Origin: a virus
Taxonomy: Duplodnaviria > Heunggongvirae > Uroviricota > Caudoviricetes
IMG/VR virus record: IMGVR_UViG_2711768073_000019
DNA length: 17,278 nt
Strand: one strand, 5' to 3'
The translations under genes were made by a program, and so were the position numbers. Below the pieces are notes generated by a model. The model made no database searches, was not told where the DNA came from, and worked only from the letters and a program-made list of their open reading frames with translations. Numbering within the stretch: position 1 is the first letter of the stretch; each line of letters opens with the position of its first letter. Of the stretch, positions 1,070-17,278 are shown in pieces.

Positions 1070-1541
1070 CGTATTTGTATTTTGTGCAATGGCGGTAGAG
1101 TGGCGATGGTGTGGCGATATGCAGAAACAATGGTAGTGCACGTGCTGTTTAAACTCTAAGGATGAAGCAGAATTCTTCTGCAGCTCCTCCGTATTTCGCA
1201 TAGTGAACCAGGACCTCTGTTAAACAAAAATTTTTCTGGGATTTTTTCACTCGACTTCATTTTTCCTCCTGCAATCCACCAACAGGTACCTGCGCTAATC
1301 TATCTTTTTAATCTGACAACATCTTGGGAAAAGGCAAATTCGTCAGATTTACTGTTTTTCTGCTGCCTCGAATGCCGATGTCTGAAGCACTGATAAGAGT
1401 TCTATCTCTTTGATATAGATCTTTTTTTTGATGAATTGCACGACATATTATCGTTATGACACCTTCTTGTTAAAGGTATTGTACTCCTCATCTCGATTTT
1501 ATGATGTGGGCTATGATTGGTTAGTAATAGAGTGTATCGGT

Positions 1542-1823
1542 ATGCGATGTGGTTTATTAATGGCAATCTGCCTTTGTTTAGTATCTTTTAGTGGATATGC
1601 AGCAACAGGAAAGTCTGATGCTCAGATCAAAAAAGAAATAATTAAAGAATCCATTGAATCTTATCCAGGCAATTGTGCGTGTCCTTATAATCATGCAAGG
1701 AATGGTAGTAGATGTGGTGGACGCAGTGCATATAGCCGTAATGGAGGGTATGACGTGGTATGTTATGAGGGTGATGTTACCGATGAAATGATCCGGCAAT
1801 GGAAGCAGGAGAATGCTGAGTAA
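1542..1823 (+). CDS. Small secreted Cys-rich hypothetical protein (93 aa from ATG 1542; the track ORF starts upstream at 1428)
   Basis: N-terminal hydrophobic signal-peptide-like segment MRCGLLMAICLCLVSFSGYAATG. Mature part has 4 Cys (NCACPYNHARNGSRCGG...VVCYEG). Lies in a roughly 38 percent GC region just past the tRNA terminator. No recognised family; weak RBS. Confidence 0.4.
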   Translation: MRCGLLMAICLCLVSFSGYAATGKSDAQIKKEIIKESIESYPGNCACPYNHARNGSRCGGRSAYSRNGGYDVVCYEGDVTDEMIRQWKQENAE

Positions 1824-1895
1824 TCTCTTTTAACAGGTTTGTTGTGCGAGCATTATGTGCCGTTAACGGTACACTAGCTAGTGATTGTTCCAAAA

Positions 1896-1932
1896 AGAAA
1901 ACCCGCAGTTCTTACGCTGCGGGTTTGTTGTT
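1896..1932. terminator. Bidirectional intrinsic terminator hairpin
   Basis: aaacccgcag-ttcttacg-ctgcgggttt, a perfect 10-bp stem flanked by A-run on one side and T-rich tract on the other. It sits 3' of the minus-strand hok-like gene and 3' of the plus-strand small ORF. Confidence 0.7.
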
Positions 1933-2011
1933 CATGTCTGTGAGATAGGGTGCCACTTCAGCCAACCTTAGCAACCGATTGACGGGGGATTGCTCCCCCG
2001 TCGCGGTTTCC

Positions 2012-2152
2012 TTACTGCTTACACTGTAAGAACGCCGCAAACTCCGCTCCCCAGAAGCTCATCCGTATTTCACACAGCGAACCGTGTAGCATCCAGATGA
2101 TGAGGATTACCGTCACGCAGAACGTGATGGCTGTAAGCGATTTTTGCGACAT
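2012..2152 (-). CDS. Hok/Gef-family type I toxin, 46 aa (not in the supplied ORF track because it is under 60 aa)
   Basis: Manual translation of the minus strand: MSQKSLTAITFCVTVILIIWMLHGSLCEIRMSFWGAEFAAFLQCKQ. Single N-terminal TM helix followed by the Hok signature SLCEIR and an EFAAF(L) tail (compare Hok KSLCEIR...EVAAFMAYE). RBS aaaGGAGcaagcgctATG. Followed 3' by a perfect stem-loop gacggggg-attgct-cccccgtc (1981-2002), then the terminator. Confidence 0.8.
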   Translation of the reverse strand: MSQKSLTAITFCVTVILIIWMLHGSLCEIRMSFWGAEFAAFLQCKQ

Positions 2153-2342
2153 AGCGCTTGCTCCTTTGTTGGAGAGGCGCTAACCTATCACTTGCTTAAG
2201 GTAGATATGTTAGGGCCTCGGTTAAACAGAAATGTTTTCCGGGGCCTTTCCACATCCGGCCTTCGGGTATTCCTCCGACCATCAGCCGAAAGGCACCCGC
2301 GGGTAATCTATCGTTTTTTTGTTACTCCGGCAATTCTGCCTG

Positions 2343-2603
2343 TTAATTCTGAGGTAAAGGCAAACTCATCTGATTGTTTCCCCTGTGTGAAGCTGGCAGC
2401 TCATGCCACGGGATACCTTCCGAAGAGTGAACGCCGGAGGCGTGTTTTGATGTGAATTTATGGAAAGCTTCCAGTGTTGAGAAGCATACGCCGCATTCCA
2501 GGTTGTTACACTGGTAATACTTTTGCCGCACAGTGTTTGAATCGTTTTCCGGACGACTGGTGCGGATTCGGGCAGATGCGCCACAAAGCGGACAACGGAA
2601 CAT
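2343..2603 (-). CDS. ogr: Ogr/Delta-family zinc-finger late-gene transcriptional activator (P2-like), 86 aa
   Basis: MFRCPLCGASARIRTSRPENDSNTVRQKYYQCNNLECGVCF aligns with P2 Ogr MFHCPLCQHAAHARTSRY...ERYHQCQNVNCSATF, including the four Cys ligands (C4, C7, C32, C37). Strong RBS aaGGGAGGtcgctATG. The C-terminus is longer than the P2 Ogr as recalled (72 aa). Confidence 0.8.
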   Translation of the reverse strand: MFRCPLCGASARIRTSRPENDSNTVRQKYYQCNNLECGVCFSTLEAFHKFTSKHASGVHSSEGIPWHELPASHRGNNQMSLPLPQN

Positions 2604-2892: not shown

Positions 2893-4032
2893 TCAGCTGC
2901 AAATTTCGTTGTTGCTGCATGTTATCTCTTCAAGTGCAGCGGCGTTATAATCAACGGAATGATCAACCTGTGATGTAGGTCTGCCAAAAAATTCAACCCC
3001 TGACATAATCATGTTGCCGATATTCTCTCGCTGTTTATCACTGAGCCTGTCCCACCACTCAGGGGATGAATATGTATTTTCGGCCTTTGTGAAGAAAAAA
3101 TACAGAAGGGTATTGAACATCCTGTTAGCTGGGATCTTAATTAGTGTCCGTATAAAACGTCTGATAATTGTTGAAGTTCTCAGCCAACTGAACACTACAT
3201 ATCCCTTACCTCCGCAGGAAAAAGCATTGAAACATACTTGTTCCGCCGACACTGTAAGATCGCTCAAATCCTGAATTTTGGTCCCATCGAAATCCCTCTC
3301 CGGTGAAAGAATTGACGAAACTACAATTGGTAAAGGCTCTGCAAAAGTGAAGATAACACTTTCAATTTCTGAAAATTGCCTGCTAAGTAGGATGCGGTCG
3401 AGGCTAGTTTTAAGATTATTTAATTCAATTATTGCTGCATTTAAGCCACTTTGGTGCTGGTCGATTAATTTCTGAATATAATACTGTTCAACTTGTAGCT
3501 TTCCTTTATCGGCATTTTTAGCAAAATCAGAAGATAGCACTCCCCCTTCTTTGGCATAAATTTCTTTAGACAATGAACGAAACATTAAGGCAAAGCACTG
3601 CTCGTCCGTGCCTGTAAATTTTTCGTTCTCTAGGCATGAAAATAAGATTCTGTCATGAACTGCACAAAATCCTGTAAAAGTGGATGCCTGATTGATACCG
3701 ATCTTCTCGGGAAGCCATTTTCCGTTGTTTCTCATCAGGCTTGCTAAGTTCATTATCACCCCCATGACGTGATTGCTGGAGTCGGCGATCGCCTTAAGGC
3801 TACTGCTCTTAGATATCGTATGCGCCTGAACGATGCGTTTATCACAATCTTCGTGCATGGATGCTGGCGCATAACATGCCTTTCTCTGCGAGAGAGACTT
3901 TGAAAATTTCAGTGCCTCGGCTTTGGATACCGGAGTTTCACGATCTCGACCAAGATGGCACTTTTTATACTTAAGTCCTGAATTACACCAGCACTTATCA
4001 TTTCTTCCTAATTTCACTTTATTGTTTCCCAC
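2893..4032 (-). CDS. Hypothetical cargo protein, 379 aa, with N-terminal SEC-C-type zinc-ribbon motif; unknown function
   Basis: Long uninterrupted minus-strand ORF in an AT-rich block between gpD and ogr. Residues 9-26 GRNDKCWCNSGLKYKKCH match the SEC-C metal-binding motif. The rest resembles no family I recognise. The annotated start is GTG without a clear SD; an alternative GTG at 4017 follows GGGAAA. Confidence 0.6.
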   Translation of the reverse strand: MGNNKVKLGRNDKCWCNSGLKYKKCHLGRDRETPVSKAEALKFSKSLSQRKACYAPASMHEDCDKRIVQAHTISKSSSLKAIADSSNHVMGVIMNLASLMRNNGKWLPEKIGINQASTFTGFCAVHDRILFSCLENEKFTGTDEQCFALMFRSLSKEIYAKEGGVLSSDFAKNADKGKLQVEQYYIQKLIDQHQSGLNAAIIELNNLKTSLDRILLSRQFSEIESVIFTFAEPLPIVVSSILSPERDFDGTKIQDLSDLTVSAEQVCFNAFSCGGKGYVVFSWLRTSTIIRRFIRTLIKIPANRMFNTLLYFFFTKAENTYSSPEWWDRLSDKQRENIGNMIMSGVEFFGRPTSQVDHSVDYNAAALEEITCSNNEICS

Positions 4033-4431: not shown

Positions 4432-5532
4432 TCATTCTGTTTCTGCTATCCATTCCGGGATTTTTGCTTCAAGCTCAAGCTGTGTGGTAAAGCCGCTGTT
4501 ATCAATGGTGTGCTCGGCTTTTGCAATAATCCAGTCCTGATTATCGATGTCACTTTTGAAGCCTGTCACCGTGCCATGCATTTCGGGATAGAGTTCTGCG
4601 CGTCCACGCGCCAGCGTGATGGAGAATGATGCGGCTCCGCGTTGTAGCTGCTGCCACTTTGCCGCCGCTGCACGTCTTGCTGCCTGCTCGTTCTGATAAG
4701 TCTTGCGTAACACAAACACGTTGCCTTCCGCACCTTCCATATAGTCACCTTCACGGCTGCTGCTTTTCTCCTTTTTCGGTTTGCGGCGTTTCACGCTGAC
4801 TTTTTTCTTTTTCCCGTAATTAAGATCAAGCCAGTAAGCACGTACCCCCGTATACGCTTCGCGGTCAGCAATGCGGAACTGATGGCGATCGCCACTGCTG
4901 CGCGTGATGGCGAACGATGGCAACGGCTGGCCCTGTGCGTTCACGCCACCGCCTGGCATGATGAATAACAGATTACTGCTTTTTACCGTAGTGATTGCGC
5001 CCAGCATTTCCGCCATGCGCGTAAGGAAGGACATGTCGCTTTCTTCGGTCTGGTCGGCGTGGTCGATTTCAATATCCATCAGCATTTCGCTGATTTGTGG
5101 TTTCAGACCGTACCGATGAGCGATGGCGGATACCACGCGCTCAACGGTCACATCATGCCAGGACACCTCACGTTTAACGTTAAATTCATCCCGAAAATCT
5201 GCGCTTCTGGCTGAAACAGTCAGCCTGTCCGGCGGTCCTTCGTGAGCGATTTCATCAACAATGTAAGTGCCTTTTTCTGTCAGCGGTTCTCCTTTCCAGC
5301 CAATGAGAACCGTCAGGTGCGCGCCCCGTGGCGGTAGCTGCAACTGACCATCTGCATCATCCAGCATGATGGTGAGCTGGTCCGCCTCAAATCCCCGGTT
5401 GTCGGTCAGTGACAGGCTCATCAGGCGCTCTGCCACGCCGGACAGTGTTTCCCCCTCCGCGAGAATATCAAAATCCGGCATTTTCACGGGGTCTGTGCTC
5501 TGACTGAGCAATTGCATGGTGGTATCGGTCAT
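4432..5532 (-). CDS. D: P2-like tail protein D (Phage_GPD / late control gene D family), copy 1, 366 aa
   Basis: RBS AGGGAGGgaacagATG at 5532 (track ORF 4432-5664 has 44 junk N-terminal codons running into IS2). Typical gpD motifs: SLSLTDNRGFEADQLTIMLDDADGQL, VSWHDVTVERVVSAIAHRYGLKP, K/R-rich internal linker. Ends ...EWIAETE. Confidence 0.9.
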   Translation of the reverse strand: MTDTTMQLLSQSTDPVKMPDFDILAEGETLSGVAERLMSLSLTDNRGFEADQLTIMLDDADGQLQLPPRGAHLTVLIGWKGEPLTEKGTYIVDEIAHEGPPDRLTVSARSADFRDEFNVKREVSWHDVTVERVVSAIAHRYGLKPQISEMLMDIEIDHADQTEESDMSFLTRMAEMLGAITTVKSSNLLFIMPGGGVNAQGQPLPSFAITRSSGDRHQFRIADREAYTGVRAYWLDLNYGKKKKVSVKRRKPKKEKSSSREGDYMEGAEGNVFVLRKTYQNEQAARRAAAAKWQQLQRGAASFSITLARGRAELYPEMHGTVTGFKSDIDNQDWIIAKAEHTIDNSGFTTQLELEAKIPEWIAETE

Positions 5533-5648
5533 CTGTTCCCTCCCTGTGCGGCATGGTCGCATGTGCGTGCATAGGGGGTTACTGCTTTTTGTTGTCGCCG
5601 TGGCGGGAGAACGGCGCAGGGGTGAGATTACGCGNCCTGGATTTGCCC

Positions 5649-6554
5649 CTATATTTCCAGACACCTGTTATCACTTACCCCATCACTGGCCCACTGCCGC
5701 AGATATTCCCGTGGCGAGCGATAACCCAGCGCACTATGCGGATGCCATTCGTTATAATGCTCGAACGCCTCTGCAAGGTTCTTTGCTGCCGTTAACCCGT
5801 CTGGTTTGGGCATGATACTTATGTAGTCACGCTTTATCGTTTTCACGAAGCTCTCTGCTATTCCGTTACTCTCCGGACTCCGCACTGCCGTGTTCTTCGG
5901 TTCAAGTCCCAACATCCTGGCGAACTGACGTGTTTCATTCGCCCGGTAGCATGAACCATTATCCGTCAGCCACTCCACTGGAGACGCCGGAAGCTCGCTG
6001 CCAAAGCGGCGTTCCACTGCTCCCAGCATGACGTCCTGTACTGTTTCACTGTCGAAGCCACCCGTTGTGACCGCCCAGTGCAGTGCCTCACGGTCACAGC
6101 AGTCCAGCGCGAACGTGACCCGCAGTTTTTCTCCGTTATCACAGCGGAACTCAAACCCGTCAGAGCACCATCGCTGATTACTTTCTTTCACAGCCACTCT
6201 GCCGGTATGTGCCCGTTTCGATGGCGGTACAGCGGGTTTTCGCTCAAGCAACAGCGCATTCTGGCGCATGATCCGGTAAACACGTTTGGCATTGATCGCA
6301 GGCATACCATCAAGTTCTGTTTGTCTGCGAAGCAGCGCCCATACCCGACGATAACCATATGTGGGTAGCTCTCCGATAACATGGTGTATACGGCGAAGCA
6401 CATCCGTATCATCCGTGTGACGGCTGCGGCGGCCGTCCTTCCAGTCATCGGCTCGTCTGAGAATGACGTGCAACTGCGCACGCGACACCCGGAGACAACG
6501 GCTGACGAAGCTTACTCCCCATCCCCGGGCAATAAGGGCGCGTGCGCTATCCAC
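5649..6554 (-). CDS. insD: IS2 transposase OrfB (InsD, DDE integrase domain), 301 aa; expressed as OrfAB fusion by -1 frameshift
   Basis: [34 protein letters not shown]... is IS3-family OrfB with an rve integrase core. Overlaps insC in the -1 frame. Confidence 0.93.
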
Positions 6555-6877
6555 TTTTTTGCTCGCCCATATTCAACGGCTTCTTTAAGGAGTTCATTTT
6601 CCATCGTTTTTTTGCCGAGCAGACGCTGGAGTTCTTTAATCTGCTTCATGGCGGCAGCAAGTTCAGAGGCAGGAACGACCTGTTCTCCGGCAGCCACAGC
6701 AGTAAGACTTCCCTCCTGGTATTGCTTACGCCAGAGAAATAGCTGGCTGGCTGCCACACCATGTTGCCGGGCAACAAGGGAGACCGTCATTCCCGGTTCA
6801 AAGCTCTGCTGAACGATAGCGATCTTTTCCTGTGTAGTACGCCGTCTGCGTTTCTCCGGCCCTAAGACATCAATCAT
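6512..6877 (-). CDS. insC: IS2 transposase OrfA (InsC), 121 aa
   Basis: [40 protein letters not shown]... is identical in character to IS2 InsC. Start set at ATG 6877 (GGAGAACAGATG), not the upstream track start. Confidence 0.93.
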
Positions 6878-6968
6878 CTGTTCTCCAATGACTAGTCTAA
6901 AAACTAGTATTAAGACTATCACTTATTTAAGTGATATTGGTTGTCTGGAGATTCAGGGGGCCAGTCTA

Positions 6969-8019
6969 CGACCTAAATCCTGAGCTCATCCCCGATATTA
7001 TTTCGGCTATTAAAAAACTATCAACGCCACCTTACAAAATAGAGATACAGGGTGGGGAGCCTCTCTTGCGGTTTGATTTAATTCAGAGCATCTATGATCA
7101 ATGTGCTGAAACGCTGGGAAGAACCAATTTTGAGATGGTGGTGGCATCAAGTCTGTCTGTCTTGAATGAGGATATGATTGAATGGTCGAGAGACCGGAAC
7201 ATAACGTTCTCTGTGTCGCTTGATGGTGAGGAAGTTGTTCACAACAGTAATCGAATTCTTGGTCGTGGGCTTGCGTATAGTAGAACAGTGTCAGGGGTAG
7301 AGGCTATCAAACACTCTTTAGGTGCTGGCCGCGTTGCAACGGTTACTACAGTTACTAAAGAGCTTATCAGACGTCCTGAATCGATTGTTCAGGCTCACTT
7401 GTCTCTTGGTCTCAAGGACATGTTTATCCGACCTGTTAGTCCCTATGGGTTTGCACAAAAAGCTTCTTTCACCTTTTCTATGGACGAATACTTCAGCTTC
7501 TATGCCTCGTTGATAGATGAAATCCTTAAGATTAATAATGAAGGGATAAGGGTTGTGGAACATTCGGCCTCCATTCATCTGAAAAGGATCTTCAATCCCG
7601 GTTTTAGTGGTTATGCGGATTTAAAGTCTCCAAGTGGAGTCGTGCTTAACAGTATTCTTTTCAATTATGACGGTCGAGTATATGGTAGCGATGAGAGCCG
7701 TATGTTGCAGAAGGTGAATCCTGAAACGGAGTTCAGTGCGGGTGAAGTTAAGACGCTATCATTTTCTGATAGTCCTTACTATAACGCAGTATTGAGTTCA
7801 TCGTTCAATTTTGCTCTGCCAGGTTGTGATACATGTGCATATCAACCATTTTGTGGTTCAGATCCATGCCAGAACATAAGTGTACAGGGTGAGCCTGTCG
7901 GTGATAGGAGTCGTTCAACGTTTTGTCAATATCACAAGGGGATGTTCAGGTATCTGATGAACTGCATCTCAGAGGGTGGTTCGAAGGCTGAGATGCTAAA
8001 AGGATGGGCATATGTCTGA
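6969..8019 (+). pseudogene. 5'-truncated radical SAM / SPASM-domain enzyme (HxsB-like maturase), interrupted by IS2
   Basis: Reading frame continues out of the IS2 end. Retained sequence begins just before the SAM-binding GGEPLL motif but lacks the upstream CxxxCxxC triad, so roughly 60-100 N-terminal residues are missing. C-terminal Cys-rich auxiliary-cluster motif ALPGCDTCAYQPFCGSDPC. Low GC. The B versus C assignment is tentative. Confidence 0.65.
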
Positions 8020-9124
8020 GGTTATCAGGAACGATATCTTTCATTTTGCTTCTACAGAGAACGTGCCCACGGGGTTCTATCGGTTATGCAAACAAAAACC
8101 AGTGAACCCTTTATTCTTTTTGCCCAATTTGCTAGTAGTTGCTGAAGGCAATAATGATGCCATTCCACCATGCTTTGATTTCTCTGTTATTAGCACTGAA
8201 TTATTTGAGTCAATTGAAGATGGAGATATTGGGATAATCAACAATGGCAATATGATACGCGTTATTCTGTCACGCAAAGCCAATCATAATACTGTCTTAG
8301 TTACGGAACGCTGCAATAACTTGTGTCTGTTTTGTTCGCAGCCACCAAAGAAAATAAATGATGACTGGCTACTTACCCAATCAGCTCTTGCTATAGCTTC
8401 ATTTGGCTTGAACGGAGTTGTTGGGGTCAGCGGTGGTGAACCTTTGCTATATGGGGATGACTTCCTTCACTTCATTGATTTTATCATCGAGAATTCACCA
8501 GATACTGCTTTACATGTTTTAACAAACGGACGCAAATTTGCTGATATCAACTTTACACAGGAAATGGCAAAGCGAAGCAAAAAGATCAAAATCACCTTTG
8601 GTATCCCGCTCTACTCATCAAGACCACTTGTGCATGATCATCTGGTAGGGAGTGATGGCGCATTTAATGAAACGGTTAAAGGGTTAATCAATGCAGGAAA
8701 CTTGGGGATTAATATCGAACTTAGAGTTATTCCTACACTGGCTAACTATACCGAATTGGATGATATTGTAGAATTCGCTGGCCGTGTGTTCTCCAACATC
8801 AATCAGATTTCCCTTATGGGGTTGGAGCCTATCGGTTGGGCACGAAAAAACTGGTCCACCATCTTCATTGATCACAGTAGTTATAGTGAGAAAATAATCT
8901 CTGCCATAGACGCTGCATACAGGTCAGGCATACCTCTGACAATTTTTAATTATCCTTTGTGTTATCTTCCTGAAAGGGCTAGGGAGCTTGCTGTTCAGTC
9001 GATCTCTGATTGGAAAAATTACTATCCAAAAGAATGTGATGAATGTACTCAGAAGCCTTCCTGTGCTGGCTATTTCAGTTCCTCAAAAGGCCGTTTTCAT
9101 CAATCACCGAGACCAATTTTATGA
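8012..9124 (+). CDS. Radical SAM enzyme (HxsC-like maturase), 370 aa
   Basis: CxxxCxxC motif ERCNNLCLFCSQP at about residues 99-111, GGEPLLY SAM-binding motif, C-terminal Cys cluster ECDECTQKPSC. Start overlaps the upstream stop (ATGtcTGA), indicating translational coupling. Low GC. Confidence 0.75.
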   Translation: MSEVIRNDIFHFASTENVPTGFYRLCKQKPVNPLFFLPNLLVVAEGNNDAIPPCFDFSVISTELFESIEDGDIGIINNGNMIRVILSRKANHNTVLVTERCNNLCLFCSQPPKKINDDWLLTQSALAIASFGLNGVVGVSGGEPLLYGDDFLHFIDFIIENSPDTALHVLTNGRKFADINFTQEMAKRSKKIKITFGIPLYSSRPLVHDHLVGSDGAFNETVKGLINAGNLGINIELRVIPTLANYTELDDIVEFAGRVFSNINQISLMGLEPIGWARKNWSTIFIDHSSYSEKIISAIDAAYRSGIPLTIFNYPLCYLPERARELAVQSISDWKNYYPKECDECTQKPSCAGYFSSSKGRFHQSPRPIL

Positions 9125-9756
9125 AAAAGTTTAATTTTGCTGCTCTACTTCCGGGATTTTTGGCTCTCAACAATTCTGTATGGGCAAGCGATTCATCTAC
9201 AGGAGCGAGTGATTTACCTGGTATGACTCTTAATGAGCATGATTTAGTGATAGCTCCACTTAACACGGAAGTCCCATTTTATATCGCAGGGCATCGAAGC
9301 CATAGCTCTCATAGGAGCCATAGCTCTCATAGATCCTCATCAGGTGGTGGATACTATGGTGGAAGTACCCCCTATTATCCAAAAACATACAGCTCACCAA
9401 GTTCATCTGGTTCTTCAAGTTCAGGTGCAAGTTCCTCATCGTCCTCTTCCTCGGTGCGTGCACTTCGTTCTAACGATAATAATAGAACCACTAACACGAG
9501 TTCTGTTGGAACTTCAGAGGTTAACCGTACGAGTAATGGGCTTGCTTCTGATGCAGAGAAACGTAAGCGATTGATTATGCGAGTTCAGTTCGCATTGCTG
9601 GACAGGGGATTTTATAACGGAAATATTGACGGCATAATGGGGCCATCCACAAGGCTGTCTGTGAAAAATTACCGCATTGCGAATGGATTACCGATTCCTG
9701 CAACTGAAACACTCGACACTCAATTGTTAAATTCTTTGAATATATTAGCTCGCTAA
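9121..9756 (+). CDS. hxsA: His-Xaa-Ser repeat precursor-like protein with signal peptide and C-terminal peptidoglycan-binding-like domain (HxsA-like), 211 aa
   Basis: ATGA overlap with the preceding rSAM gene. Signal peptide MKKFNFAALLPGFLALNNSVWA; (H-R-S)(H-S-S)(H-R-S)(H-S-S)(H-R-S) repeats; Ser/Gly low-complexity linker; C-terminal LLDRGFYNGNIDGIMGPSTRLSVKNYRIANGLP resembles a PG_binding_1 fold. Matches my recollection of the TIGRFAM His-Xaa-Ser system description. Confidence 0.65.
   Translation: MKKFNFAALLPGFLALNNSVWASDSSTGASDLPGMTLNEHDLVIAPLNTEVPFYIAGHRSHSSHRSHSSHRSSSGGGYYGGSTPYYPKTYSSPSSSGSSSSGASSSSSSSSVRALRSNDNNRTTNTSSVGTSEVNRTSNGLASDAEKRKRLIMRVQFALLDRGFYNGNIDGIMGPSTRLSVKNYRIANGLPIPATETLDTQLLNSLNILAR
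9298..9333 (+). repeat. 2 x 18-bp near-perfect tandem direct repeat inside hxsA encoding the HSSHRS repeats
   Basis: agccatagctctcatagg (9298-9315) and agccatagctctcataga (9316-9333), 17/18 identical. Confidence 0.85.
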
Positions 9757-9920
9757 ATCTCAGTGAGGTATAAATAAAAAGCAATAAATTATATTAGTCG
9801 CGCGTCCATTATTAGTGGGTAAGATCAAGGACCGTCTGCTCTGTGTTAGGGGCAGATGGTCAGATAAGACTGTGCCGTTTAGCCCGCTAGTACGTGTCTG
9901 GACTAATACATTTAAGAGTC

Positions 9921-11024
9921 TCATTCTGCTATCCATTCCGGGATTTTTGCCTCAAGCTCAAGCTGCGTGGTAAAGCCGCTGTTATCAATGGTGTGCTCGG
10001 CTTTCGCAATAATCCAGTCCTGATTATCAATCTCGCTTTTAAAGCCTGTTACCGTGCCATGCATTTCGGGGTAGAGTTCTGCGCGTCCACGTGCCAGTGT
10101 GATGGAGAACGCTGCGGCTCCGCGTTGTAGCTGCTGCCACTTTGCCGCCGCTGCGCGTCTTGCTGCCTGCTCGTTCTGATAAGTCTTGCGTAACACAAAC
10201 ACATTGCCTTCCGCGCCTTCCATATAATCACCTTCACGGCTGCTGCTTTTCTCCTTTTTGGGTTTTGGCGGTTTACGGCGTTTCACGCTGACTTTTTTCT
10301 TTTTCCCGTAATTAAGATCAAGCCAGTAGGCGCGTACCCCCGTATACGCCTCGCGGTCAGCAATACGGAACTGATGGCGATCGCCGCTGCTGCGTGTAAT
10401 GGCGAACGAGGGCAACGGCTGGCCCTGTGCGTTCACGCCACCACCTGGCATGATGAATAACAGATTGCCGCTTTTTACTGTGGTGATTGCGCCCAGCATT
10501 TCCGCCATGCGCGTAAGGAAGGACATGTCGCTTTCTTCGGTCTGGTCGGCGTGGTCGATTTCGATATCCATCAGCATTTCGCTGATTTGCGGTTTCAGAC
10601 CGTACCGATGAGCGATGGCGGATACCACACGCTCAACGGTCACATCATGCCAGGACACCTCACGTTTAACGTTAAATTCATCCCGAAAATCTGCGCTTCT
10701 GGCTGAAACAGTCAGCCTGTCCGGCGGTCCTTCGTGTGCAATTTCATCAACAATGTAAGTGCCTTTTTCTGTCAGCGGTTCTCCTTTCCAGCCAATGAGA
10801 ACCGTCAGGTGCGCGCCCCGTGGCGGTAGCTGCAACTGACCATCTGCATCATCCAGCATGATGGTGAGCTGGTCCGCCTCAAATCCCCGGTTGTCGGTCA
10901 GTGACAGGCTCATCAGGCGCTCTGCCACGCCTGACAGCGTTTTACCCTCCGCGAGAATATCAAAATCCGGCATTTTCACGGGGTCTGTGCCCTGACTGAG
11001 CAATTGCATGGTGGTGTCGGTCAT
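9921..11024 (-). CDS. D: P2-like tail protein D, copy 2 (diverged allele), 367 aa
   Basis: Same family and RBS as copy 1 but distinct sequence: SQGTDP vs SQSTDP, AEGKTLSG vs AEGETLSG, KRRKPPKPKKEK vs KRRKPKKEK, ends ...EWIAE without the TE. The 3' flank differs completely from copy 1. Confidence 0.9.
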   Translation of the reverse strand: MTDTTMQLLSQGTDPVKMPDFDILAEGKTLSGVAERLMSLSLTDNRGFEADQLTIMLDDADGQLQLPPRGAHLTVLIGWKGEPLTEKGTYIVDEIAHEGPPDRLTVSARSADFRDEFNVKREVSWHDVTVERVVSAIAHRYGLKPQISEMLMDIEIDHADQTEESDMSFLTRMAEMLGAITTVKSGNLLFIMPGGGVNAQGQPLPSFAITRSSGDRHQFRIADREAYTGVRAYWLDLNYGKKKKVSVKRRKPPKPKKEKSSSREGDYMEGAEGNVFVLRKTYQNEQAARRAAAAKWQQLQRGAAAFSITLARGRAELYPEMHGTVTGFKSEIDNQDWIIAKAEHTIDNSGFTTQLELEAKIPEWIAE

Positions 11025-11181
11025 CTGTTCCCTCCCTGTGCGGCATGGTCGCATGTGCGTGCGGAGGGGGTTACTGCTTTTTGTTGTCGCCGGGTCGGGA
11101 GAACGGCGCAGGGGTGAGATTACGCGCGTGGTGGGTGATGATTGTTGCCGAATCATTTAACGGATACAAGGGGCTGAAGCT

Positions 11182-12348
11182 ATGAGTGAAACTCGTTTTC
11201 ATGGTGCCCGTGTTACGGAAAATACCGACCTGGTAACAGCGATTAACGATGTTGATTCCAGCGTTATCGGTATCGTGGCAACGGCGGATGATGCGGACGC
11301 GAAGCTGTTCCCGCTGAACAAGCCCACACTGCTGACCCGCGTCAATGACGTGCTGGGAAAATGCGGGACAACGGGGACGCTTTATCGTGCGCTTAAGGCC
11401 ATTGCAGACCAGGTGAGCACAAAGGTGATCGTCGTTCGCGTGGCTGAACACAAAGAAGAAGACGGAAAGACGCAGGATCAACTGGTTATCGGTGGTTCTG
11501 AATCTGACGGCAGCTATACGGGGATGTATGCGCTGCTTGTTGCAGAGCAGGATGAAAGCATCGGATACCGTCCGCGTATTCTGGCCGCGCCGGAGCTGGA
11601 CACGGAGGCGGTAACAAAATCCCTGTGCGTGATTGCGGGTAAACTGCGCGCGTTTGTGTATGCCTCATGTCACGGCTGTAACACGATGGCTGAGGCGATT
11701 ACCTACCGCCAGAAATTCAACGAACGTGAGGTGATGCTCTTATGGCCGGACTTCATCGCCTACAACCCGAAAAGTGGCAAAAACGAAACGTTCCCCGCGC
11801 CTGCCTATGCGTGTGGCCTTCGTGCGTACATTGACCATGAGCAGGGATGGCACAAATCACTGTCCAACGTTCCGGTTAAAAATGTGCTGGGGATGTCGAG
11901 GCATGTGTTCTGGTCGTTGCAGGCCGAAGACAGCGATGCCAACAGCCTCAACAACAAAGAAATCACGACCATTATTCGTCGCAACGGGTTCCGCTTCTGG
12001 GGCAACCGCACACCGGAAACGAACGCCTACATCTTTGAGGTGTATACCCGAACCGCACAGGTGCTGGCTGATTCAATTGCAGAAGCGCAGTTTGAAACCA
12101 TCGACAGTCCACTGACGCCTGCGAACGTGAAGGATGTTATCAGTGCCATCAGGGCAAAACTGGATTCACTGGTTACTGCCGGGAAACTGATTGGCGCGGA
12201 GTGCTGGTATGACGTGGTGGATAACAGCACCACGGATTTACGTCAGGGACGTGTGCGTATTCGCTACAAATATACGCCCGTTCCGCCACTGGAAGACATG
12301 GAGCTTTACCAGACGTTTACTGATGAATACTTTGAACCCGCATTTGCG
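11182..12348 (+). CDS. FI: P2-like tail sheath protein FI, 3' end cut by an ambiguous base (last 5 codons missing)
   Basis: MSETRFHGARV...WPDFIAYNP...GFRFWGNRT...YKYTPVPPLEDMELYQTFTDEYFEPAFA shows conserved sheath motifs as in P2 gpFI. Frame is broken at n 12349, where the sequence jumps into the antisense interior of gpD. Confidence 0.88.
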
Positions 12349-12349
12349 N

Positions 12350-12998
12350 GGCGATCGCCACTGCTGCGCGTGATGGCGAACGATGGCAACGGCTGGCCCT
12401 GTGCGTTCACGCCACCGCCTGGCATGATGAATAACAGATTACTGCTTTTTACCGTAGTGATTGCGCCCAGCATTTCCGCCATGCGCGTAAGGAAGGACAT
12501 GTCGCTTTCTTCGGTCTGGTCGGCGTGGTCGATTTCAATATCCATCAGCATTTCGCTGATTTGTGGTTTCAGACCGTACCGATGAGCGATGGCGGATACC
12601 ACACGCTCAACGGTCACATCATGCCAGGACACCTCACGTTTAACGTTAAATTCATCCCGAAAATCTGCGCTTCTGGCTGAAACAGTCAGCCTGTCCGGCG
12701 GTCCTTCGTGAGCGATTTCATCAACAATGTAAGTGCCTTTTTCTGTCAGCGGTTCTCCTTTCCAGCCAATGAGAACCGTCAGGTGCGCGCCCCGTGGCGG
12801 TAGCTGCAACTGACCATCTGCATCATCCAGCATGATGGTGAGCTGGTCCGCCTCAAATCCCCGGTTGTCGGTCAGTGACAGGCTCATCAGGCGCTCTGCC
12901 ACGCCGGACAGTGTTTCCCCCTCCGCGAGAATATCAAAATCCGGCATTTTCACGGGGTCTGTGCTCTGACTGAGCAATTGCATGGTGGTATCGGTCAT
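12350..12998 (-). pseudogene. gpD fragment (N-terminal about 216 codons, copy-1-type allele)
   Basis: Identical in character to 4885-5532. Bounded by n at 12349. Confidence 0.7.
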
Positions 12999-13155
12999 CT
13001 GTTCCCTCCCTGTGCGGCATGGTCGCATGTGCGTGCATAGGGGGTTACTGCTTTTTGTTGTCGCCGTGGCGGGAGAACGGCGCAGGGGTGAGATTACGCG
13101 CGTGGTGGGTGATGATTGTTGCCGAATCATTTAACGGATACAAGGGGCTGAAGCT

Positions 13156-13897
13156 ATGAGTGAAACTCGTTTTCATGGTGCCCGTGTTACGGAAAGTACC
13201 GACCTGGTAACAGCGATTAATGATGTTGATTCCAGTGTTATCGGTATCGTGGCAACGGCGGATGATGCGGACGCGGAGCTGTTCCCGCTGAACAAGCCCA
13301 CACTGCTGACCCGCGTCAATGACGTGCTGGGAAAATGCGGGACTACGGGGACGCTTTATCGTGCGCTTAAGGCTATTGCAGACCAGGTGAGCACAAAAGT
13401 GATCGTCGTTCGCGTGGCTGAACACAAAGAAGAAGGCGGTAAGACGCAGGATCAACTGGTTATCGGTGGTTCTGAATCTGACGGCAGCTATACGGGGATG
13501 TATGCGCTGCTTGTTGCAGAGCAGGATGAAAGCATCGGATACCGTCCGCGTATTCTGGCCGCGCCGGAGCTGGACACGGAGGCGGTGACAAAATCCCTGT
13601 GCGTGATTGCGGGTAAACTGCGCGCGTTTGTGTATGCCTCATGTCATGACTGTAACACGATGGCTGAGGCAATTACCTACCGCCAGAAATTCAACGAACG
13701 TGAGGTGATGCTCTTATGGCCGGACTTCATCGCCTACAACCCGAAAAGTGGCAAAAACGAAACGTTCCCCGCGCCTGCCTATGCGTGCGGCCTTCGTGCG
13801 TACATTGACCATGAGCAGGGCTGGCACAAATCGCTGTCCAACGTTCCTGTTAAAAATGTGCTGGGGATGTCCAGGCATGTTTTCTGGTCGTTGCAGG
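13156..13897 (+). pseudogene. FI fragment (N-terminal about 247 codons, variant allele: ESTDLV, ADAELF, EEGGKTQ, SCHDCNT)
   Basis: Runs into the N-run at 13898-13908. Confidence 0.7.
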
Positions 13898-13908
13898 NNN
13901 NNNNNNNN
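13898..13908. other. Assembly gap (11 N)
   Basis: Run of n. Sequence after the gap restarts at the gpD start region (tcggtcatctgttccctccc). Confidence 0.99.
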
Positions 13909-14073
13909 TCGGTCATCTGTTCCCTCCCTGTGCGGCATGGTCGCATGTGCGTGCGGAGGGGGTTACTGCTTTTTGTTGTCGCCGGGTCGGGAGAACGGCG
14001 CAGGGGTGAGATTACGCGCGTGGTGGGTGATGATTGTTGCCGAATCATTTAACGGATACAAGGGGCTGAAGCT

Positions 14074-14779
14074 ATGAGTGAAACTCGTTTTCATGGTGCC
14101 CGTGTTACGGAAAATACCGACCTGGTAACAGCGATTAACGATGTTGATTCCAGCGTTATCGGTATCGTGGCAACGGCGGATGATGCGGACGCGAAGCTGT
14201 TCCCGCTGAACAAGCCCACACTGCTGACCCGCGTCAATGACGTGCTGGGAAAATGCGGGACAACGGGGACGCTTTATCGTGCGCTTAAGGCCATTGCAGA
14301 CCAGGTGAGCACAAAGGTGATCGTCGTTCGCGTGGCTGAACACAAAGAAGAAGACGGAAAGACGCAGGATCAACTGGTTATCGGTGGTTCTGAATCTGAC
14401 GGCAGCTATACGGGGATGTATGCGCTGCTTGTTGCAGAGCAGGATGAAAGCATCGGATACCGTCCGCGTATTCTGGCCGCGCCGGAGCTGGACACGGAGG
14501 CGGTGACAAAATCCCTGTGCGTGATTGCGGGTAAACTGCGCGCGTTTGTGTATGCCTCATGTCATGACTGTAACACGATGGCTGAGGCAATTACCTACCG
14601 CCAGAAATTCAACGAACGTGAGGTGATGCTCTTATGGCCGGACTTCATCGCCTACAACCCGAAAAGTGGCAAAAACGAAACGTTCCCCGCGCCTGCCTAT
14701 GCGTGCGGCCTTCGTGCGTACATTGACCATGAGCAGGGCTGGCACAAATCGCTGTCCAACGTTCCTGTTAAAAATGTGC
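14074..14779 (+). pseudogene. FI fragment (N-terminal about 235 codons, mosaic allele: ENTDLV and AKLF but SCHDCNT)
   Basis: Runs into the N-run at 14780-14816. Confidence 0.7.
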
Positions 14780-14816
14780 NNNNNNNNNNNNNNNNNNNNN
14801 NNNNNNNNNNNNNNNN
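14780..14816. other. Assembly gap (37 N)
   Basis: Run of n. Sequence resumes inside FI at about codon 77. Confidence 0.99.
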
Positions 14817-15772
14817 AGGTGAGCACAAAGGTGATCGTCGTTCGCGTGGCTGAACACAAAGAAGAAGACGGAAAGACGCAGGATCAACTGGTTATCGGTG
14901 GTTCTGAATCTGACGGCAGCTATACGGGGATGTATGCGCTGCTTGTTGCAGAGCAGGATGAAAGCATCGGATACCGTCCGCGTATTCTGGCCGCGCCGGA
15001 GCTGGACACGGAGGCGGTAACAAAATCCCTGTGCGTGATTGCGGGTAAACTGCGCGCGTTTGTGTATGCCTCATGTCACGGCTGTAACACGATGGCTGAG
15101 GCGATTACCTACCGCCAGAAATTCAACGAACGTGAGGTGATGCTCTTATGGCCGGACTTCATCGCCTACAACCCGAAAAGTGGCAAAAACGAAACGTTCC
15201 CCGCGCCTGCCTATGCGTGCGGCCTTCGTGCGTACATTGACCATGAGCAGGGCTGGCACAAATCGCTGTCCAACGTTCCTGTTAAAAATGTGCTGGGGAT
15301 GTCCAGGCATGTTTTCTGGTCGTTGCAGGCCGAAGACAGTGATGCCAACAGCCTCAACAACAAAGAAATCACGACCATTATTCGTCGCAACGGGTTCCGC
15401 TTCTGGGGCAACCGCACACCGGAAACGAACGCCTACATCTTTGAGGTGTATACCCGAACCGCACAGGTGCTGGCTGATTCAATTGCGGAAGCGCAGTTTG
15501 AAACCATCGACAGTCCACTGACGCCTGCGAACGTGAAGGATGTTATCAGTGCCATCAGGGCAAAACTGGATTCGCTGGTTACTGCCGGGAAACTGATTGG
15601 CGCGGAGTGCTGGTATGACGTGGTGGATAACAGCACCACGGATTTACGTCAGGGGCGTGTGCGTATTCGCTACAAATATACGCCCGTTCCGCCACTGGAA
15701 GACATGGAGCTTTACCAGACGTTTACTGATGAATACTTTGAACCCGCATTTGCGGTGCTGGGAGGTGCCTGA
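14817..15772 (+). pseudogene. FI fragment (C-terminal about 318 codons to native stop)
   Basis: Ends ...EPAFAVLGGA-TGA at 15770-15772. Followed by tggctgt, then n at 15780. Confidence 0.7.
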
Positions 15773-15780
15773 TGGCTGTN

Positions 15781-16766
15781 TTTATCGTGCGCTTAAGGCC
15801 ATTGCAGACCAGGTGAGCACAAAGGTGATCGTCGTTCGCGTGGCTGAACACAAAGAAGAAGACGGAAAGACGCAGGATCAACTGGTTATCGGTGGTTCTG
15901 AATCTGACGGCAGCTATACGGGGATGTATGCGCTGCTTGTTGCAGAGCAGGATGAAAGCATCGGATACCGTCCGCGTATTCTGGCCGCGCCGGAGCTGGA
16001 CACGGAGGCGGTAACAAAATCCCTGTGCGTGATTGCGGGTAAACTGCGCGCGTTTGTGTATGCCTCATGTCACGGCTGTAACACGATGGCTGAGGCGATT
16101 ACCTACCGCCAGAAATTCAACGAACGTGAGGTGATGCTCTTATGGCCGGACTTCATCGCCTACAACCCGAAAAGTGGCAAAAACGAAACGTTCCCCGCGC
16201 CTGCCTATGCGTGTGGCCTTCGTGCGTACATTGACCATGAGCAGGGATGGCACAAATCACTGTCCAACGTTCCGGTTAAAAATGTGCTGGGGATGTCGAG
16301 GCATGTGTTCTGGTCGTTGCAGGCCGAAGACAGCGATGCCAACAGCCTCAACAACAAAGAAATCACGACCATTATTCGTCGCAACGGGTTCCGCTTCTGG
16401 GGCAACCGCACACCGGAAACGAACGCCTACATCTTTGAGGTGTATACCCGAACCGCACAGGTGCTGGCTGATTCAATTGCAGAAGCGCAGTTTGAAACCA
16501 TCGACAGTCCACTGACGCCTGCGAACGTGAAGGATGTTATCAGTGCCATCAGGGCAAAACTGGATTCACTGGTTACTGCCGGGAAACTGATTGGCGCGGA
16601 GTGCTGGTATGACGTGGTGGATAACAGCACCACGGATTTACGTCAGGGACGTGTGCGTATTCGCTACAAATATACGCCCGTTCCGCCACTGGAAGACATG
16701 GAGCTTTACCAGACGTTTACTGATGAATACTTTGAACCCGCATTTGCGGTGCTGGGAGGTGCCTGA
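15781..16766 (+). pseudogene. FI fragment (C-terminal, from about codon 67, to native stop)
   Basis: Begins LYRALKAIADQ... directly after n 15780. Stop TGA at 16764-16766 overlaps the FII ATG. Confidence 0.7.
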
Positions 16767-17278
16767 TGGCTGTGCCAAAACATCTTCGCTTTTTTACGCT
16801 GTTTGTGGATGGTGAAAACGAAGTGGGTAAGGTGACGTCCGTCACTCTGCCCAAACTGACGCGCAAAACCGACAGCTACCGGGGGGGCGGCATGATGGGT
16901 GCGGTAAGTATTGATCTCGGTCTGGACGACTCCGCGCTTGATGCGAGCTTTGTCATGGGGGGCGCAGTTCGTGAGCTGTTCCTTAAGTATGGCGGCACGA
17001 TTGACGGCACGCTGCTGCGTTTTGCGGGTGAATACTACACCGATGCAGAAAGCGACCTGTATGAAGTCGAAATGCGCGGACGTGTGACGGAAATTGATAT
17101 GGGGGAAGCCAAACAGGGCGAAGCCACATCACACACTTACGCCATTAAAAACACCTACTACAAGCTGAGTGTTAACGATCGCCCGTTGTGGGAGATTGAC
17201 CTGCTGAACTTCATTTACCGGAAGGACGGCAAGGACATTGTGCCCGATCGCATCCGTTCCGCGCTTGGGCTTGGCTGA
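16766..17278 (+). CDS. FII: P2-like tail tube protein FII, 170 aa, complete
   Basis: MAVPKHLRFFTLFVDGENEVGKVTSVTLPKLTRKTDSYRGGGMMGAVSIDLGLDD... parallels P2 gpFII (...NLFIDGVSYAGRITEVTPPKLSRKMEEYRAGGM...). TGATG start/stop overlap with FI. Stop TGA at 17276-17278. Confidence 0.9.
   Translation: MAVPKHLRFFTLFVDGENEVGKVTSVTLPKLTRKTDSYRGGGMMGAVSIDLGLDDSALDASFVMGGAVRELFLKYGGTIDGTLLRFAGEYYTDAESDLYEVEMRGRVTEIDMGEAKQGEATSHTYAIKNTYYKLSVNDRPLWEIDLLNFIYRKDGKDIVPDRIRSALGLG

What the first reader, a model, noticed from the sequence alone, without database searches (positions are those of the whole stretch)
1933..2342. Uncalled hok/sok-like type I toxin-antitoxin locus between ogr and the tRNA operon
A 46-aa minus-strand ORF (2012-2152) with the Hok signature (TM helix, SLCEIR, EFAAF) is missing from the ORF track only because of its size. 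It has a good SD, a perfect 8-bp stem-loop right after the stop (a plausible fold-back element) and a strong terminator. The 190-bp leader (2153-2342) should encode the overlapping mok frame and a plus-strand Sok-like antisense RNA, which I could not delimit by eye. Its position at the prophage and tRNA boundary suggests a role in stabilising the island.
Basis: partly seen in the sequence, partly recalled or inferred. Interest (0 to 1): 0.55.

Follow-up and report, generated by a model that had tools for sequence, protein, structure and literature searches.

The report
Known prophage hok/sok toxin–antitoxin locus
The small gene is a real hok/sok-type toxin–antitoxin module carried next to the ogr gene of a P2-like prophage in E. 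coli. It is already annotated and catalogued, so it is ordinary, except that this version seems to lack the usual helper reading frame (mok).

Summary
A 46-aa minus-strand ORF at 2012-2152 is a Hok/Gef toxin (Pfam PF01848, 30.1 bits against a cut-off of 22; PHROG 251, E 2.5e-23).

It is not a new find:
- RefSeq already annotates this exact protein (WP_000078920.1, "Hok/Gef family protein").
- The 801-base hok-ogr stretch matches in 1554 of 5426 complete E. coli genomes, and the locus is also in P2-like phages (P88, Chuche).
- The exact peptide is in a 2026 Hok catalogue (cluster 72). A 45/46-identical peptide from that cluster was tested there, and was not among the three non-toxic ones.

The RNA anatomy could be mapped:
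- mRNA start near 2298;
- 5' tac element (2284-2298) pairing with a 3' fbi element (1948-1963);
- a 9-bp hairpin (1981-2002), probably the 3'-processing stop rather than the fold-back element;
- terminator (1899-1926);
- a predicted 58-nt Sok RNA (2194-2251, plus strand) whose promoter is kept in 52 of 52 relatives.

One departure from the R1 model: there is no mok frame. The homologous start codon is missing, and 35 of 52 relatives have no upstream ORF reaching the hok ribosome-binding site.

The locus travels with ogr as phage cargo. Its link to the tRNA operon is incidental.

The parts
2328..2333 (-). hok promoter, -35 box (TTGCCG)
   Evidence: Read from the sequence. It lies 17 nt from the -10 box and starts 10 nt after the ogr stop codon. 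This is a consensus-type prediction only; the scan did not list it because it is below that scan's threshold.
2305..2310 (-). hok promoter, -10 box (TAGATT)
   Evidence: It has the same spacing to GGGTGCC as the TATAAT upstream of K-12 hokC. Predicted, not tested.
1893..2298 (-). Full-length hok mRNA (predicted), about 400 nt
   Evidence: The 5' end is placed by position 1 of Rfam model RF01794 and by alignment to the hokB and hokC leaders. The 3' end is placed by the terminator. Minimum free energy is -175 kcal/mol, z -7.0, with the 5' end paired to the 3' region.
2284..2298 (-). tac element (GGGUGCCUUUCGGCU)
   Evidence: It pairs with 1948-1963 in the minimum-energy fold. In 52 relatives, 92.3% of cells in this helix are paired. 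All single-side changes in the core are wobble-compatible, and one pair changes on both sides (UA 45, CG 6).
2239..2249 (-). ucb-like box (AAAGGCCCCGG)
   Evidence: In the full-length fold it pairs with CCGAGGCC at 2214-2221. In the RNAalifold consensus it pairs instead with tac; columns 1-10 pair with 53-61, including a UA/CG compensatory pair.
2174..2219 (-). Sok-target hairpin (GAGGC...GCCUC) holding the former mok ribosome-binding site GAGG (2216-2219); no mok start codon
   Evidence: RNAalifold helix, columns 86-98 with 121-132, and the Rfam consensus structure. The position aligned with the hokB and hokC mok ATG carries no start codon.
2152..2182 (-). Local hairpin that sequesters the hok ribosome-binding site (AAGGAG, 2161-2166) and the start codon
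   Evidence: -13.4 kcal/mol, z -4.6. 95.8% of cells are paired across 52 relatives. The predicted probability that the site is unpaired is about 0.002.
2012..2152 (-). hok coding sequence, 46 aa toxin
   Evidence: RefSeq WP_000078920.1. dN/dS against divergent relatives is 0.18-0.32.
1981..2002 (-). 9-bp GC-rich hairpin, probably the 3' end and stabiliser of the processed (truncated) mRNA
   Evidence: -18.2 kcal/mol. Five of its nine pairs show changes on both sides, and 99.8% of cells are paired. The role is inferred from R1 hok (PMC9841398).
1948..1963 (-). fbi element (GGCUGAAGUGGCACCC)
   Evidence: It pairs with tac. GGCACCC is also present 3' of K-12 hokB; 3' of hokA the matching stretch reads TTGCACCC.
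1899..1926 (-). Intrinsic terminator, two-way (also closes the plus-strand ORF 1542-1823)
2158..2186 (+). Sok promoter: -35 TTGCTC (2158-2163), 17-nt spacer, -10 TAACCT (2181-2186)
   Evidence: The motif, with a 17-nt spacer, is found in 52 of 52 distinct relatives: -35 TTGCTC 47, TTTACT 4, TTGCCT 1; -10 TAACCT 50, TATCCT 2. No transcript has been shown.
2194..2251 (+). Predicted Sok antisense RNA, about 58 nt: an 18-nt single-stranded 5' tail plus a terminator hairpin and UUU
   Evidence: Fold energy -21.5 kcal/mol, z -3.6. Length and position match the annotated K-12 SokC (59 nt) and SokB (57 nt). The ends are predicted only.
2343..2603 (-). ogr/Delta late-gene activator (context; conserved upstream neighbour)
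   Evidence: Pfam PF04606, 52.4 bits. Present directly upstream in 79 of 80 IMG/VR relatives.

Best explanation
**What it is.** This is a hok/sok-type type I toxin-antitoxin module of Hok peptide cluster 72. It is carried as accessory cargo at the ogr end of a P2-like prophage, which in this window is a remnant inserted just after the glyW-cysT-leuZ tRNA operon.

**Shown by sequence and comparison.**
- The 46-aa ORF is a Hok/Gef membrane toxin under purifying selection.
- Its roughly 400-nt mRNA has the conserved hok leader.
- A 5' tac element pairs with a 3' fbi element.
- A local hairpin buries the hok ribosome-binding site.
- A stable hairpin follows the stop codon, and a terminator follows that.
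- The opposite strand carries a conserved promoter followed by a tail-plus-hairpin RNA of Sok size.

**Inferred by analogy with R1 hok/sok (PMC9841398).**
1. The full-length mRNA is translationally silent because tac-fbi pairing locks it closed.
2. Slow 3' trimming back to the 1981-2002 hairpin removes fbi.
3. tac then pairs with the ucb box, and the leader refolds into the Sok-target hairpin.
4. The short-lived Sok RNA binds there and triggers decay. Hok is therefore made only when Sok stops being replenished, for example on loss or induction of the element.

**Departure from R1.** There is no mok reading frame. Hok translation must therefore depend directly on refolding of the leader around its own ribosome-binding site, or be very inefficient.
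For: **Protein family.**
- Pfam 30.1 bits against a cut-off of 22. PHROG 251, E 2.5e-23.
- Closest NCBIfam model is HokA. Identity to K-12 HokA is 43%.

**Already annotated and widespread.**
- Annotated as Hok/Gef in RefSeq at exactly these coordinates.
- The 801-base hok-ogr stretch matches in 1554 of 5426 complete E. coli genomes.
- The 461-base locus has matches in 198 phage records and 34 plasmids, and 311 IMG/VR contigs encode a relative of the peptide.

**Toxicity evidence from the literature.**
- The exact peptide is sequence 1628 in the supplement of bioRxiv 10.1101/2025.08.07.668861.
- Cluster-72 peptides 72_1621 (45/46 identical) and 72_1589 were among 45 tested. Only 19_179, 60_1482 and 69_1540 were non-toxic.

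**RNA.**
- Rfam hok/sok model E 3.8e-9 over 2298-2142. Leader aligns with K-12 hokB and hokC.
- Full-length fold z -7.0, with the 5' and 3' ends paired. The same closure appears in a Salmonella relative.
- 95.0% of cells are paired against 36-46% when partners are slid. Eleven pairs change on both sides, reached by 0 of 500 shuffles.
- Sok promoter found in 52 of 52 relatives, and the Sok fold is as expected.

**Selection and linkage.** dN/dS is 0.18-0.32. ogr is directly upstream in 79 of the 80 closest relatives.
Against: - No transcript, processing step, toxicity or antisense control was measured for this locus.
- The Rfam score (46.7) is below the family's gathering score (59).
- There is no mok ORF, yet in R1 mok translation up to the hok ribosome-binding site is mandatory for Hok synthesis (PMC9841398).
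- In the thermodynamic model, the ribosome-binding site of this allele stays buried even in the truncated mRNA: probability unpaired 0.003 against 0.05-0.15 in several relatives.
- This allele also lacks one G in the leader compared with 50 of 52 relatives.
- tac-fbi pairing is supported mostly by conservation. Swapping partners between the E. coli and Salmonella types lowers the duplex energy only modestly.
Confidence: 0.8

Rival explanations
1. The locus is a genuine hok/sok relative but is translationally dead. Without mok the toxin is never made, so the module is a decaying passenger, like several chromosomal hok copies in K-12.
For: - No start codon at the mok position, and no upstream ORF reaches the hok ribosome-binding site in this allele.
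- The ribosome-binding site is predicted paired in the full-length, truncated and Sok-blocked states (0.002-0.003).
- A private 1-nt leader deletion is shared with only one other sequence.
- The surrounding prophage is a remnant carrying an IS element.
- K-12 mokA is annotated as a pseudogene next to IS150.
Against: - The same mok-less leader is present in the sequenced phages P88 and Chuche and in 35 of 52 distinct relatives from phages, plasmids and three genera. It is therefore a lineage trait, not a private lesion.
- The Hok ORF is under purifying selection (dN/dS 0.18-0.32).
- The promoters, tac, fbi, hairpins and Sok promoter are all intact and conserved.
Confidence: 0.17
2. The module is active, but its job is phage-related rather than island stabilisation. 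It could help lysis when the prophage is induced, as shown for hokW-sokW of prophage Sp5. Or it could abort infection by other phages, as reported for R1 hok/sok against T4.
For: - The locus is phage cargo tied to ogr, not to the tRNA site.
- hokW-sokW raised Sp5 release about two-fold (PMC8621323).
- No terminator separates ogr from the hok promoter, so late transcription could read into hok.
Against: - Sp5 HokW is a different paralogue: 51 aa, starting MKQQKAM according to primer YO-357. Its result cannot simply be transferred.
- The prophage in this window looks defective, so lysis help would be moot here.
- The same preprint found no enrichment of hok near defence systems (section heading).
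Confidence: 0.35
3. The ORF is a chance open frame in an intergenic region, and the hairpins are ordinary terminators.
For: The ORF is short (46 codons). The region also holds many other short ORFs of 20 aa or more on both strands.
Against: - Family matches at E 3.7e-7 and E 2.5e-23.
- 68 homologous proteins in E. coli, Shigella, Salmonella and Klebsiella.
- Conserved RNA structure with compensatory changes.
Confidence: 0.01

Closest known systems
Hok cluster 72 of the Hok catalogue (bioRxiv 10.1101/2025.08.07.668861); RefSeq WP_000078920.1; PHROG 251
   Same: The window peptide is identical to sequence 1628. It is 45/46 identical to the tested peptide 72_1621. It has the same 46-aa length and the same MSQKSL...GSLCE.R...GAEFAAFLQCKQ pattern.
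   Different: Nothing at the protein level. The catalogue did not analyse mok, Sok or the mRNA structure, so the RNA map given here is additional.
hok/mok/sok (parB) of plasmid R1
   Same: - Toxin family.
- Leader homology to the Rfam model.
- tac-fbi closure of the 5' and 3' ends.
- A ucb box and a GAGG-containing target hairpin.
- A stable 3' hairpin.
- Sok promoter in the same place, opposite the hok ribosome-binding site, with a 17-nt spacer.
- A Sok RNA of about 58-64 nt.
   Different: - The toxin is 46 aa, not 52.
- There is no mok ORF.
- It is carried by a phage, not a plasmid.
- The R1 sequence itself was recalled from memory and not fetched, so base-level comparison rests on K-12 hokB and hokC and on Rfam.
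Chromosomal hokB/mokB/sokB and hokC/mokC/sokC of E. coli K-12
   Same: - The leaders align along their whole length: GCGGGTGCC at the 5' end, AAGGCCCCG, and AACCGAGGCC.
- GGCACCC lies 3' of hokB.
- Sok sits 42 nt upstream of hok here, against 48-49 nt in K-12, with lengths of 58 against 57-59 nt.
   Different: hokB and hokC have an ATG 5-6 nt after AACCGAGGCC that opens mok. The window has ATA/ATC there, and stops follow in all three frames. Of the K-12 Hok proteins only HokA was compared directly (43% identity).
hokW-sokW of Stx2 prophage Sp5/933W (PMC8621323)
   Same: A prophage-borne hok/sok module. Phage annotations of the window's ORF borrow its name ('MokW-like host killing').
   Different: HokW is a separate paralogue (51 aa, MKQQKAM..., HokC/D-like). 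The window's relative in Stx2 phages is a second, distinct 46-aa hok locus with 83% DNA identity.

Membership tests
Hok/Gef toxin family (Pfam PF01848) | Protein matches the family profile above the curated cut-off | tested here: met
   30.1 bits against a cut-off of 22, covering profile positions 5-42 of 42.
Hok/Gef toxin family (Pfam PF01848) | Short peptide with one N-terminal hydrophobic helix and the conserved C-E core and E..AA motif | tested here: met
   Read directly from the sequence. Residues 6-23 are uncharged and hydrophobic. The motifs SLCEIR and AEFAAF are present. C27, E28 and E37 are invariant in 25 relatives. No transmembrane predictor was run.
Hok/Gef toxin family (Pfam PF01848) | Toxic on expression | not testable with these tools
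   Reported for cluster-72 peptides 72_1621 (45/46 identical) and 72_1589 in bioRxiv 10.1101/2025.08.07.668861. Not reported for this exact sequence.
HokA (NCBIfam NF007290 equivalog) | Score at or above the equivalog cut-off | tested here: not met
   35.8 bits against a cut-off of 89. Identity to K-12 HokA is 43%. It is closest to HokA but is not HokA.
[quoted passage not shown] | Leader RNA matches Rfam RF01794 at the gathering score | tested here: not met
   46.7 bits against a gathering score of 59. The match is full-length (model positions 1-157) at E 3.8e-9, and homology to the hokB and hokC leaders is plain in alignment A3.
[quoted passage not shown] | Long-range pairing of the mRNA 5' end (tac) with a 3' element (fbi) | tested here: met
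   Present in the minimum-energy folds of the window and of a Salmonella relative. 92.3% of cells are paired in 52 sequences. This is in silico only, and rests mostly on conservation.
[quoted passage not shown] | Antisense Sok RNA gene with its own promoter and terminator, opposite the leader | tested here: inconclusive
   A promoter motif with a fixed 17-nt spacer is found in 52 of 52 relatives. A tail-plus-hairpin RNA of 58 nt is predicted. No transcript data were available.
[quoted passage not shown] | Overlapping mok leader ORF whose translation is needed for hok translation | tested here: not met
   There is no ATG, GTG or TTG at the homologous position, and stops close all three frames between -62 and -12. 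The same holds in 35 of 52 relatives; 17 of 52 do have a crossing ORF.
[quoted passage not shown] | Slow 3' processing that activates the mRNA; RNase III cleavage of the Sok duplex | not testable with these tools
   Only the stable hairpin where trimming would be expected to stop (1981-2002) can be shown.

The most novel reading that the evidence does not exclude
Cluster-72 hok loci, including this one and those of the phages P88 and Chuche, may work without mok. The old mok ribosome-binding site (GAGG, in the invariant AACCGAGGCC) would survive only as part of the Sok-target hairpin, or as a ribosome standby site. Hok synthesis would then be switched directly by leader refolding, which competes for the GCCUCUCC anti-ribosome-binding-site strand, with Sok reversing that refolding. 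That would be a second regulatory design within the classic hok/sok family.
Probability: 0.3. Interest if true: 0.45.

Novelty: already known. Interest (0 to 1): 0.2.

Why it matters
As a gene find it adds nothing. The ORF is annotated, widespread and catalogued, and a near-identical peptide has been tested.

Two things may be of modest use:
- A base-level map of the regulatory RNA elements for a Hok cluster whose RNA side has not been described in the papers I could search.
- The observation that most members lack a mok frame. This runs against the R1 rule that mok translation is mandatory. If these loci are active, they give a natural test of how a hok mRNA can be controlled without mok.

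Tried and rejected
- **hokW identity.** Phage records call the ORF 'MokW-like', but the Sp5 hokW primers encode MKQQKAM...DYESEK, a different 51-aa paralogue. Rejected.
- **HokA identity.** Well below the NCBIfam equivalog cut-off. Rejected.
- **The small upstream ORF (AUG 2282 to UAA 2196, 28 codons) as a mok substitute.**
  - Its frame is not kept in relatives, because indels shift it.
  - Its AUG is CUG in the Salmonella type.
  - It stops 32 nt before the hok ribosome-binding site.
  - Rejected as a conserved element.
- **Cognate against swapped tac/fbi duplex energies as a covariation test.** E. coli 5' with E. coli 3' gave -26.8 against -23.4 kcal/mol for swapped partners. Salmonella 5' with Salmonella 3' gave -23.8 against -23.7. 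The invariant core dominates, so the test is weak.
- **Direct opening of the hok ribosome-binding site in the truncated mRNA.** The thermodynamic model shows it in 8 of 11 relatives but not in the window allele. It is kept only as a hypothesis.
- **The search for related loci with the single 46-aa protein.** The genome-contig scan with an alignment gave only 7 loci.
- **Steif and Meyer 2012, 'The hok mRNA family'.** Not held in the library.

Full report
**Where the window comes from.** The window is E. coli chromosome. Bases 1850-2650 are 100% identical to several complete genomes, including O103 strain RM8385. The gene order is:
- pgsA;
- tRNA-Gly, tRNA-Cys and tRNA-Leu (701-1003);
- a hypothetical ORF;
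- the small minus-strand ORF of the finding;
- ogr/Delta (2343-2603);
- a YecA-family SEC-C protein;
- P2-type late genes.

Homology to K-12 stops at base 1072, just after the leuZ 3' trailer. Homology to the P2-like phage P88 covers 1892-2643 at 97.5%.

- The ORF at 2012-2152 (minus strand, 46 aa) reads MSQKSLTAITFCVTVILIIWMLHGSLCEIRMSFWGAEFAAFLQCKQ.
- It passes the Pfam Hok/Gef cut-off (30.1 against 22 bits) and matches PHROG 251 at E 2.5e-23.
- Its nearest NCBIfam model is HokA, but far below that equivalog's cut-off (35.8 against 89 bits). Identity to K-12 HokA is 43%.
- AAGGAG lies 8 nt before the ATG.
- A perfect 9-bp hairpin (1981-2002, -18.2 kcal/mol) starts 9 nt after the stop.
- A terminator follows at 1899-1926.

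**It is not an overlooked gene.**
- RefSeq annotates exactly this CDS as WP_000078920.1, 'Hok/Gef family protein'.
- The 801-base hok-ogr stretch has matches in 1554 of 5426 complete E. coli genomes.
- The 461-base locus has matches in 198 phage records, including P88, Chuche and other Xuanwuvirus phages at 92-98%, and a second hok locus of Stx2 phages at 83%. It also matches in 34 plasmids.
- 311 IMG/VR contigs encode a relative of the peptide.
- A protein search gave 68 relatives, mostly 46 aa long, in E. coli, Shigella, Salmonella and Klebsiella.
- A 2026 preprint that catalogues Hok peptides (bioRxiv 10.1101/2025.08.07.668861) lists this exact peptide as sequence 1628, in its cluster 72.
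- That preprint cloned two cluster-72 peptides: 72_1621, which differs from the window by V16A, and 72_1589. Of 45 homologues tested, only 19_179, 60_1482 and 69_1540 were non-toxic.
- The 'MokW-like' label in phage records is only a family name. The studied HokW of prophage Sp5 is a different 51-aa paralogue (PMC8621323).

**RNA anatomy.**
- The Rfam hok/sok model RF01794 matches the hok-sense strand over 2298-2142, across the full model (E 3.8e-9, 46.7 bits, below the gathering score of 59).
- The leader aligns along its whole length with the K-12 hokB and hokC leaders, whose mok and sok genes are annotated. This places the mRNA start near 2298.
- Upstream lie TAGATT (2305-2310) and TTGCCG (2328-2333), 17 nt apart, right after the ogr stop.
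- The 409-nt RNA from 2298 to 1890 folds to -175 kcal/mol (z -7.0). Its first 15 nt (tac, 2284-2298) pair with 1948-1963 (fbi). A Salmonella relative with a different second half of both elements closes in the same way.
- I aligned 52 distinct relatives (A2) and counted four named helices: tac-fbi, ucb/GAGG, the hok ribosome-binding-site hairpin and the 3' hairpin. 95.0% of cells are paired, against 36-46% when partners are slid. Eleven pairs change on both sides, a count reached by 0 of 500 shuffles.
- Most double changes are in the 3' hairpin and the ucb hairpin. The tac-fbi core is supported by conservation, and all of its single changes are wobble-compatible.
- These controls have known limits. 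The sequences are related, and the structure was derived from the window sequence.
- RNAalifold on the same alignment prefers the alternative 'open' arrangement: tac paired with AAAGGCCCC, and GAGGC paired with GCCUC. That is the fold expected for the processed mRNA in the R1 model (PMC9841398).
- The hairpin just after the stop is therefore best read as the stop point and stabiliser of the 3'-trimmed mRNA. It is not the fold-back element.

**Sok.**
- On the plus strand, TTGCTC (2158-2163), a 17-nt spacer and TAACCT (2181-2186) are found with that exact spacing in 52 of 52 relatives. Two relatives carry TATCCT instead.
- A start near 2194 gives a 58-nt RNA ending at 2251. It has an 18-nt open 5' tail and a -21.5 kcal/mol hairpin followed by UUU.
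- K-12 SokC and SokB are 59 and 57 nt long and start 49 and 48 nt upstream of their hok start codons. Here the distance is 42 nt.
- Part of this conservation could instead come from constraints on the overlapping hok ribosome-binding site. No transcript data were available.

**The missing mok.**
- In hokB and hokC an ATG follows AACCGAGGCC by 5-6 nt and opens mok. The window has CTAACATATC at that position, with no ATG, GTG or TTG. TAA, TGA, TAG and TAG then close all three frames before the hok ribosome-binding site.
- Among the 52 relatives, 35 (including P88 and Chuche) have no upstream ORF reaching the hok ribosome-binding site, and 38 have all three frames closed. 17 do have a crossing ORF, for example TTG at -46 or ATG at -130.
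- In R1, mok translation up to the hok ribosome-binding site is required for Hok synthesis (PMC9841398). The Hok catalogue preprint explicitly left mok unanalysed.
- The hok ribosome-binding site sits in a -13.4 kcal/mol hairpin whose 5' strand, GCCUCUCC, is also the partner of GAGGC in the open fold.
- In a simple thermodynamic model, the ribosome-binding site becomes 2- to 100-fold more accessible in the truncated RNA in 8 of 11 relatives. It closes again when the Sok target region is blocked. In the window allele it stays closed (0.003).
- The Hok ORF shows dN/dS of 0.18-0.32 against divergent relatives, which argues that it is translated at some point. The sampling was partly selected on protein similarity.
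- I therefore hold mok-independent control as a hypothesis (about 0.3) and a silent locus as the main rival (about 0.17).

**Role.**
- The locus is phage cargo. ogr lies directly upstream on the same strand in 79 of the 80 closest IMG/VR relatives.
- A Salmonella prophage inserted next to ihfA/pheT has the same gpD-ogr-hok order.
- More distant cluster-72 copies sit in a lambdoid tail-fibre region, near a plasmid relaxase, and near ppiD.
- The tRNA neighbourhood thus reflects where this prophage inserted.
- Three roles are possible: stabilising the element, helping lysis on induction as hokW-sokW does (PMC8621323), or excluding other phages. These tools cannot decide between them.

**Verdict.** This is a correct identification of an ordinary, already known element. 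One small unexplained feature, the absence of mok, is worth a bench test.

Noticed in passing
window 9924-17278: This stretch consists of five overlapping copies (96.6-99.6% identity) of one segment that is single-copy in strain RM8385 (late control D plus tail sheath; L001 11592-14537). The repeated 136-aa minus-strand ORFs reflect this. It is either a tandem amplification or an assembly artefact.
   Followed up: partly
window 4432-11156: The gpD gene is present twice (4432-5664 and 9921-11156, both minus strand). Between the copies lie an IS3-family transposase (5649-6554), two radical-SAM ORFs (6931-8019 and 8012-9124) and an ORF with a weak peptidoglycan-binding domain hit (9043-9756). RM8385 lacks this insert.
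   Followed up: partly
window 1073-1891: This stretch lies between the end of K-12 homology (1072, just after the leuZ 3' trailer) and the start of P88 phage homology (1892), and matches neither. It holds a hypothetical plus-strand ORF (1542-1823 in RefSeq, WP_001303543.1) with no Pfam hit above its cut-off. The prophage attachment site was not located.
   Followed up: no
window 2272-2276: This allele has GGAGG where 50 of 52 relatives have GGAGGG or a different length. The 1-nt leader deletion is shared only with L036. Its effect on folding or on upstream frames is unknown.
   Followed up: no
window 2298-2345: No terminator lies between the ogr stop codon (2343-2345) and the predicted hok promoter. 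Transcription of ogr, or late phage transcription, could read into hok and give 5'-extended RNAs that cannot form the normal tac structures.
   Followed up: no
window 2142-2298 (Rfam RF01794): The Rfam family named 'sok antitoxin' matches the hok-sense strand. Its consensus begins like the hok mRNA 5' end (GGGUGCUUGAG) and ends at the hok AUG. A hit therefore marks the hok leader rather than the orientation of the antisense RNA.
   Followed up: partly
window 2893-4032: A 379-aa YecA-family protein with an N-terminal SEC-C motif sits between ogr and gpD as apparent phage cargo. In K-12 the host yecA gene lies next to the same tRNA operon.
   Followed up: no
L005, L006, L009 (genome contigs): Near-identical E. 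coli-type hok loci appear in records labelled Planococcaceae, Vagococcus and Xanthomonas pisi. These are most likely contaminating enterobacterial contigs in those assemblies.
   Followed up: no
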